Shown: positions 37,203 through 39,046 of the stretch, piece after piece | Position numbering within the stretch: position 1 is the first letter of the stretch | Layout of the letters: each line of letters starts with the position of its first letter | Source: Dictyostelium discoideum | Lineage: Eukaryota | NCBI GenBank assembly: GCA_000004695.1 | Contig: CM000151.3 | Coordinates: 768,001-832,000, forward strand | DNA: 64,000 nt | Direction: 5' to 3' | Made by a program: the position numbers and the translations under genes | Notes under the pieces: generated by a model | What the model saw: only the letters and a program-made list of their open reading frames with translations | The model's database searches: none | What the model was told of the DNA's origin: nothing

Positions 37203-39046
<1,844 letters not shown>

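What the first reader, a model, noticed from the sequence alone, without database searches (positions are those of the whole stretch)
38990..39005. Apparent 1-nt frameshift in exon 1 of the F-BAR/SH3 gene
From the ATG at 39046 the frame reads MSYSTDLLDGFERHYIKEHMVF*. The clearly homologous continuation (RTYGVLKCNQEMSNFFKKLSVLEADYSKALLKLVK, which matches CIP4 [27 protein letters not shown]) lies in the -1 frame. The switch occurs at an A4 run (plus TTTT at ~38996-38999). The three exons sum to 1499 nt, and one extra A gives 1500 nt, or 500 codons. This is most likely a homopolymer-length error or allele. A genuine disruption or programmed frameshift is not excluded.
Basis: partly seen in the sequence, partly recalled or inferred. 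Interest (0 to 1): 0.5.

Follow-up and report, generated by a model that had tools for sequence, protein, structure and literature searches.

The report
Reference sequence error in fbp17

Summary
The gene on the minus strand is D. discoideum fbp17 (DDB_G0271812). The frame break is there. The ATG at 39046 runs into TAA at 38980-38978 after 22 codons, and the three exons sum to 1499 nt.

The cause is not a missing A in the A4 run (38999-38996). The closest independent assembly has the same haplotype and is inferred to be lab strain AX2-214. Against it, the window differs across the whole gene (ATG to stop, introns included) at only three places within 22 nt:
- an extra GG at 39009-39008
- two substitutions, at 38990 and 38988, that turn a conserved Glu codon (GAA) into TAT

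All nine other Dictyostelium assemblies in the 90% cluster and D. firmibasis, plus one assembled transcript, read MSYSTDLLDGFETLYKRTEGVLKCNQ (497-502 aa; 498 in D. discoideum).

Intergenic DNA nearby holds dense patches of further window-private 1-nt indels and T/A swaps. Two wild strains side with the AX2-like assembly there. I therefore judge this a reference artefact (about 0.85) and a real AX4-private lesion about 0.1. A programmed frameshift is effectively excluded.

The AX4 RefSeq/UniProt model (471 aa) lacks 27 N-terminal residues as a result.

The parts
38848..39046 (-). Exon 1 of fbp17 (DDB_G0271812), from the true start ATG 39046-39044 to the GT donor at 38847
   Evidence: The splice junction is confirmed by the assembled transcript L002. 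Li et al. 2023 forward primers begin ATG AGT TAT TCA ACC.
39008..39009 (-). Extra GG dinucleotide. This is the actual frame-breaking difference (window GAAAGGCATT; all other assemblies GAAACATT).
   Evidence: It is absent from L001, L003, L004 and transcript L002.
38988..38990 (-). Codon TAT (Tyr) where all relatives have GAA (Glu). The two substitutions are at 38990 (T for G) and 38988 (T for A). They create the NdeI site CATATG at 38992-38987.
   Evidence: Among the full-length homologues aligned, this column of the KRT[E/D]G motif is Glu or Asp in nearly all; the exceptions are Ile in Pelomyxa P0020 and Ser in P0032/P0037.
38978..38980 (-). Premature TAA that ends the frame opened by the ATG at 39046 after 22 codons
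39012..39014 (-). TGA in the continuation (-1) frame. The reading frame cannot have switched upstream of this point.
   Evidence: frame 1 translation: …RWI*KALYKRTYGV….
38996..38999 (-). It is identical in all D. discoideum assemblies and is not the site.
38961..38963 (-). Internal ATG (MSNFFKK…) used as the start by the AX4 RefSeq/UniProt model XP_645489.1 / Q55AN3 (471 aa)
   Evidence: P0054 equals the window ORF read from this ATG.
38615..38756 (-). Exon 2 (142 nt)
   Evidence: Junctions confirmed by transcript L002.
37322..38479 (-). Exon 3 (1158 nt, including the stop TAA 37324-37322). It encodes the rest of the F-BAR domain, the HR1 region and the SH3 domain.
39698..39908 (.). Intergenic patch of about 28 window-private discrepancies (alternating 1-nt indels, T/A swaps), 650-860 nt upstream of the start codon. 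It has the same error style as the exon 1 cluster.
   Evidence: Where this could be decided, L003 agrees with L001 against the window.

Best explanation
The window is the D. discoideum AX4 reference sequence of the fbp17 locus (chromosome 2). The interruption of exon 1 is a local base-calling or assembly error of the Sanger-era reference: two spurious G's at 39009-39008 and two miscalled bases at 38990 and 38988.

The real gene has a 1497-nt CDS. It encodes a 498-aa FBP17/CIP4/TOCA-type protein (F-BAR, HR1, SH3) starting at the ATG at 39046 and reading MSYSTDLLDGFETLYKRTEGVLKCNQ….

Because of the error, automatic annotation started the AX4 model at the next in-frame ATG (38963). That removes 27 residues of the first F-BAR helix.

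Shown: the three differences, their uniqueness to the window, and the conservation of the intact sequence.
Inferred: that L001 is AX2-214, that the window is the AX4 reference, and that the differences are errors and not AX4-private mutations.
For: 1. Across the gene (ATG to stop, 1725 nt with introns) the window differs from L001 by 2 substitutions and 1 gap, all inside 22 nt. The flanking (ATT)n and (AAT)n microsatellites have identical lengths. Wild strains L003 and L004 differ by 44+11 and 52+15 events. L001 is therefore the same clonal lineage.
2. Holland et al. 2025 deposited exactly three D. discoideum assemblies: AX2-214, CR116C and OT3A. The one identical in haplotype to AX4 is by inference AX2-214.
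3. L001, L003, L004, transcript L002, six further Dictyostelium assemblies and D. firmibasis all encode …GFETLYKRTEGV…. More distant dictyostelids keep the same motif with small variations (FE/FD-x-LY/IY-KR-T/S-EGV). The Glu replaced by Tyr in the window is Glu or Asp in nearly all full-length homologues aligned.
4. The same 7.8 kb holds about 55 more window-versus-L001 differences. They are concentrated in dense patches (39908-39698, 41371-41238, 41705-41682) and are the kind expected of poor traces: alternating 1-nt indels and T/A swaps. Where exact 19-mers decide, L003/L004 side with L001 in about 20 events and with the window in about 2.
5. AX2 and AX4 share one parent isolate, from established knowledge of the strain history. 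The measured mutation rate is 2.9e-11 per site per generation. Saxer et al. found 1916 candidate differences from the reference that were shared between their AX4-derived lines; they attributed these to reference errors, to differences between their ancestor clone and the reference, or to mutations before the lines were founded. Dozens of real changes in 8 kb are implausible.
6. The AX4 RefSeq protein (471 aa) is exactly the window ORF read from the internal ATG.
7. Li et al. 2023 amplified the gene from the upstream ATG in Ax2 and obtained N-terminal GFP fusions with SH3-dependent behaviour. That requires an open frame from 39046 to the SH3 domain.
Against: No raw AX4 reads were available, so a genuine AX3/AX4-private lesion is not excluded directly.

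The identification of L001 as AX2-214 rests on haplotype identity and on the strain list in the paper, not on a strain label in the record.

The long GST-Fbp17 primer of Li et al. carries ACt TAT GGT and AGA TTA. This shows that some source they trusted contained TAT and the NdeI site. I read this as the frame-corrected database CDS (window minus GC). It could instead mean their Ax2 clone really has those bases.

Look-ups for Logan contigs carrying either allele of exon 1 were uninformative.
Confidence: 0.85

Rival explanations
1. This is a real, strain-private complex mutation (a 2-nt insertion plus two substitutions) in the AX3/AX4 lineage. The reference strain would then make no full-length Fbp17, only at best an N-terminally truncated protein from the internal ATG.
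For: The sequence is what the window shows. The official AX4 model starts at the internal ATG. No independent AX4 read data could be consulted. AX4 is known to carry private lesions elsewhere, for example the axeB deletion.
Against: Three changes within 22 nt in an otherwise identical 1.7-kb gene are not a typical spontaneous event. The measured mutation rate is extremely low. The neighbouring intergenic DNA carries dozens of window-private discrepancies of the same style. These cannot all be real, which shows the reference is unreliable in this stretch. The rest of the ORF shows no decay.
Confidence: 0.1
2. One reading: a homopolymer-length error or allele at the A4 run (38999-38996). One missing A would restore a 1500-nt, 500-codon CDS.
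For: Adding an A does restore an open frame.
Against: The A4 run is identical in L001, L003, L004 and L002. The -1 frame already matches the conserved LYKRT upstream of the run. The repaired peptide ERHYIKRTY needs an extra gap column and mismatches every homologue. The real difference is the GG at 39009-39008.
Confidence: 0.02
3. Programmed -1 ribosomal frameshifting, or native translation from the internal ATG giving a protein without the first F-BAR helix.
For: A Lys-tRNA could in principle re-pair on A_AAA_G. The internal ATG is in frame.
Against: The frameshift is absent from every other Dictyostelium genome examined, so nothing is conserved. There is no X_XXY_YYZ heptamer between 39011 and 39005, where homology requires the switch (direct reading). 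The 101 nt downstream fold no better than shuffles (z = -0.10). The N-terminal 27 residues align from residue 1 to the solved FBP17 F-BAR domain (2EFL, E = 6e-25) and are highly conserved.
Confidence: 0.01

Closest known systems
Dictyostelium Fbp17 (DDB_G0271812), described by Li et al. 2023, J Cell Biol (PMC10072221)
   Same: It is the same gene. The AX4 model P0054 is the window ORF read from the internal ATG. The paper's primers match the window at the upstream ATG and at the stop.
   Different: The window copy carries the GG insertion and the GAA-to-TAT change. The database protein is 471 aa, against 498 aa in other D. discoideum assemblies.
Human FBP17 / CIP4 / TOCA-1 (F-BAR, HR1, SH3 adaptors that activate WASP-Arp2/3)
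   Same: The domain order is the same. The F-BAR region aligns from residue 1 to 2EFL (E = 6e-25) and to 2EFK (E = 4e-13). The SH3 domain is at the C terminus.
   Different: Overall identity is low; Li et al. report 21.3%. The HR1 match in this protein is below the Pfam cut-offs (24 bits against 27 and 33).
Known discrepancies in the AX4 reference genome (Saxer et al. 2012, PMC3466296)
   Same: That study found 1916 candidate differences from the reference shared between AX4-derived lines. It attributed them to reference errors, to ancestor-versus-reference differences, or to mutations before the lines were founded. The present cluster behaves like such a difference: it is private to the reference and contradicted by a same-lineage assembly.
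   Different: I could not check whether this particular site is on their list. Here the error breaks a gene model.
Programmed -1 ribosomal frameshift sites
   Same: Two overlapping frames have to be joined to make the full protein.
   Different: There is no slippery heptamer, no stimulatory structure and no conservation. In relatives the frames are simply contiguous.

Membership tests
FBP17/CIP4/TOCA family of F-BAR proteins | N-terminal FCH/F-BAR domain | tested here: met
   Pfam FCH E = 6.2e-14, 52.5 bits against a 27.8 cut-off. phmmer to the FBP17 F-BAR structure 2EFL gives E = 6.1e-25 over residues 1-285, and to CIP4 2EFK gives E = 3.9e-13.
FBP17/CIP4/TOCA family of F-BAR proteins | Central HR1 (Rho-GTPase-binding) region | tested here: inconclusive
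   HR1_TOCA scores 24.4 bits against a cut-off of 27. HR1 scores 24.1 bits against 33.1. Most orthologues carry a precomputed PF25610 hit. Li et al. annotate an HR1.
FBP17/CIP4/TOCA family of F-BAR proteins | C-terminal SH3 domain | tested here: met
   SH3_9 E = 3.7e-13, SH3_1 E = 3.9e-11.
Programmed -1 ribosomal frameshift | Slippery heptamer X_XXY_YYZ at the point where the frames must switch | tested here: not met
   The switch must lie between 39011 and 39005 (TTT GAA AGG CAT TA), and no such heptamer is there. Only a weak A_AAA_G exists further downstream, and homology excludes that as the site.
Programmed -1 ribosomal frameshift | Stable downstream RNA structure | tested here: not met
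   38994-38894 folds at -11.8 kcal/mol against a shuffle mean of -11.5, z = -0.10.
Programmed -1 ribosomal frameshift | Frameshift conserved in orthologues | tested here: not met
   The other Dictyostelium assemblies (the eight full-length NCBI members of the P0001 cluster and D. firmibasis) and seven more distant dictyostelid homologues all have one uninterrupted frame.
Reference sequence or assembly artefact | The difference is private to one assembly and contradicted by an independent assembly of the same clonal lineage | tested here: met
   L001 is identical across 1.9 kb (39146-37250) except for this 22-nt cluster. The wild strains also lack the cluster. That L001 is AX2-214 is inferred.
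Reference sequence or assembly artefact | Neighbouring sequence shows further clustered, assembly-private discrepancies | tested here: met
   Patches lie at 39908-39698, 41371-41238 and 41705-41682. The outgroups side with L001.
Reference sequence or assembly artefact | Raw reads from the reference strain itself show the uninterrupted sequence | not testable with these tools
   There is no access to SRA reads.
Decaying pseudogene | Several independent disabling or non-conservative changes along the gene | tested here: not met
   Outside the 22-nt cluster, the CDS and introns are identical to L001, and the protein is identical to P0001.

The most novel reading that the evidence does not exclude
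The reference strain AX4 (or its AX3 parent line) really carries this complex lesion. It would then be a natural fbp17 loss-of-function or N-terminally truncated mutant. Cortex and rear-actin phenotypes linked to the GxcM-Fbp17-RacC-WASP pathway would differ between AX4- and AX2-based laboratories.
Probability: 0.08. Interest if true: 0.35.

Novelty: not a real feature. Interest (0 to 1): 0.1.

Why it matters
The value is mainly housekeeping.
- The RefSeq/UniProt entry for Dictyostelium Fbp17 (XP_645489.1 / Q55AN3, 471 aa) lacks the first 27 residues of its F-BAR domain because of this reference error.
- The obvious "repairs" give wrong residues. Adding an A gives RHYIK. Dropping GC gives R13/Y19.
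- Correcting the model to the 498-aa protein MSYSTDLLDGFETLYKRTEGV… matters for anyone doing structure-function work on the F-BAR domain.
- It also flags that this stretch of the chromosome 2 reference has low-quality patches.

There is no new biology here.

Tried and rejected
1. I looked for independent data carrying the frameshift allele. Exact-product look-ups of the 471-aa AX4 model and of the 39-aa exon 1 ORF found nothing on record. This is uninformative, because short ORFs may never be called.
2. I looked for the intact 66-aa exon 1 product.
3. Logan genomic contigs carrying P0061 (L005-L010) cover only exon 3, so they say nothing about exon 1.
4. Transcript L002 (SRR24091722) carries the intact allele, but it differs from the AX4/AX2 haplotype at two synonymous sites (38069 and 37697). 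It probably comes from another strain and cannot speak for AX4.
5. The supplement of Honda et al. 2021, an AX4 laboratory that tagged this gene, is not held.
6. I considered a tiny intron or non-canonical splice to bridge the frames. I rejected it because there is no GT…AG in the interval, and relatives have contiguous sequence there.
7. I considered and rejected a programmed frameshift.

Full report
**What is in the window**

The window is extremely AT-rich, with 13-33% GC per 2 kb. The gene in question lies on the minus strand.

From the ATG at 39046 the frame reads MSYSTDLLDGFERHYIKEHMVF and stops at TAA 38980-38978. The -1 frame opens after a TGA at 39014-39012. It reads KALYKRTYGVLKCNQEMSNFFKKLSVLEADYSKALLKLVK… up to a GT donor at 38847.

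With the two introns removed, the exons are 39046-38848, 38756-38615 and 38479-37322. They sum to 1499 nt.

**What the gene is**

The repaired protein has three Pfam matches: an N-terminal FCH/F-BAR domain, a weak HR1 region and a C-terminal SH3 domain.

It aligns from residue 1 to the solved F-BAR domain of human FBP17 (2EFL, E = 6e-25) and to that of CIP4 (2EFK).

A database search found it in the AX4 annotation as DDB_G0271812 (XP_645489.1 / Q55AN3, 471 aa). That entry is exactly the window ORF read from the internal ATG at 38963. I take this as showing that the window is the AX4 reference; this is an inference.

Li et al. 2023 named the gene Fbp17. They showed that it links the RhoGEF GxcM to RacC-WASP-Arp2/3 at the cell rear.

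**Where the frame really breaks**

Eight other full-length proteins in the same 90% cluster all start MSYSTDLLDGFETLYKRTEGVLKCNQ and are 497-502 aa long. They come from three D. discoideum, two D. cf. discoideum, two D. citrinum and one D. dimigraforme assembly. D. firmibasis and more distant dictyostelids start the same way or nearly so.

In an alignment of about 60 N-termini, the window's -1 frame (ALYKRT-Y-GVLK) matches the conserved xLYKRT[E/D]GVLK already upstream of the A4 run. Frame 0 (RHYIK) does not match.

At the DNA level the sequences read as follows:
- Window: GAA A**GG**CA TTA TAT AAA AGA ACA **T**A**T** GGT
- Loci L001, L003, L004 and the assembled transcript L002: GAA ACA TTA TAT AAA AGA ACA GAA GGT

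The lesion is therefore an extra GG at 39009-39008 (+2 nt), plus substitutions at 38990 and 38988. The substitutions replace a Glu that is Glu or Asp in nearly all full-length homologues with Tyr. The A4 run is unchanged in every strain. The correct CDS is 1497 nt and encodes 498 aa.

**Artefact or real lesion?**

L001 is identical to the window over 39146-37250. That stretch includes both introns and the long (AAT)n tract after the stop. The only exceptions are these three differences within 22 nt. The (ATT)n tract upstream has the same length in both as well.

From ATG to stop the counts are:

| Locus | Substitutions | Gaps |
|---|---|---|
| L001 | 2 | 1 |
| L003 (wild strain) | 44 | 11 |
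| L004 (wild strain) | 52 | 15 |

L001 is therefore the same clonal lineage as the window. The source paper (Holland et al. 2025) sequenced exactly one lab strain, AX2-214, alongside two wild D. discoideum isolates, using Nanopore plus Illumina reads. I infer that L001 is AX2-214.

AX2 and AX4 descend from the same isolate; this rests on established knowledge of the strain history. The measured mutation rate is 2.9e-11 per site per generation. Saxer et al. found 1916 candidate differences from the reference that were shared between their AX4-derived lines. They attributed these to reference errors, to differences between their ancestor clone and the reference, or to mutations before the lines were founded.

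The rest of the 7.8-kb comparison contains about 55 more differences between the window and L001. They are concentrated in dense intergenic patches:
- 39908-39698
- 41371-41238
- 41705-41682

These patches consist of alternating single-base insertions and deletions and of T/A swaps. In the multiple alignment, wild strain L003 agrees with L001 and not with the window in these patches. By exact 19-mers, about 20 events side with L001 and about 2 with the window. This is the signature of poor-quality stretches in the older reference. The exon 1 cluster has the same style.

Independent functional evidence points the same way. Li et al. amplified the gene from the upstream ATG in Ax2. Their N-terminal GFP fusions were recruited to the cortex through the C-terminal SH3 domain. 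That needs one open frame from 39046 to the end of the gene.

**A caveat**

[quoted passage not shown] This is the window sequence minus GC, with the NdeI site silenced.

The simplest reading is that it was designed from a frame-corrected database CDS. In that case their recombinant protein carries R13 and Y19 in place of the native T13 and E19.

It could alternatively mean that their clone truly had TAT. I cannot decide this with the tools. It is the main reason I leave about 10% for a real lineage-specific variant.

**Programmed frameshifting**

The shift is absent from all relatives. No X_XXY_YYZ heptamer lies where the frames must join. The downstream 101 nt fold no better than shuffled sequence (z = -0.10). 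I consider this excluded for practical purposes.

**Searches that gave nothing**

The genomic contigs that do exist cover only exon 3. Transcript L002 has the intact allele but differs at two synonymous sites from the AX4/AX2 haplotype, so it is probably from another strain.

**Verdict**

The most likely explanation is a sequence error in the AX4 reference (about 0.85). A real AX4-private lesion remains possible (about 0.1).

There is no new biology, so interest is low. The practical point is that the public 471-aa model of Fbp17 should be replaced by the 498-aa protein, and that ad hoc repairs of the reference give wrong residues.

Noticed in passing
window 39698-39908, 41238-41371, 41682-41705, 36277-36292, 35056-35071: These are dense patches of window-private differences from the same-haplotype assembly L001: alternating 1-nt indels and T/A swaps. 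All lie in AT-rich intergenic DNA between fbp17 and its neighbours, a PEPCK gene upstream and a large ComC_SSD/DUF7743 gene downstream. Where this could be decided, wild strains agree with L001. They look like low-quality stretches of the reference.
   Followed up: partly
window 38987-39010 (compared with the primer in PMC10072221, Table 1): The published GST-Fbp17 forward primer encodes GAA AGA TTA … ACt TAT GGT. That gives R13 and Y19 and silences an NdeI site that exists only in the reference version. The recombinant protein used for the in vitro work probably carries two non-native residues, inherited from a repair of the reference error.
   Followed up: partly
L002 (Logan SRR24091722) against window 38069 and 37697: The only assembled full-length transcript of this gene in the read-assembly collection differs from the AX4/AX2 haplotype at two synonymous sites. 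One of them is shared with wild strain L003. It likely comes from a non-NC4 strain.
   Followed up: yes
window 37215-37321 and 39230-39335: Long perfect trinucleotide tracts flank the gene: (AAT)n directly after the stop codon and (ATT)n in the 5' region. Their lengths are identical in the window and in L001 but differ in the wild strains. This made them useful as a lineage marker.
   Followed up: yes
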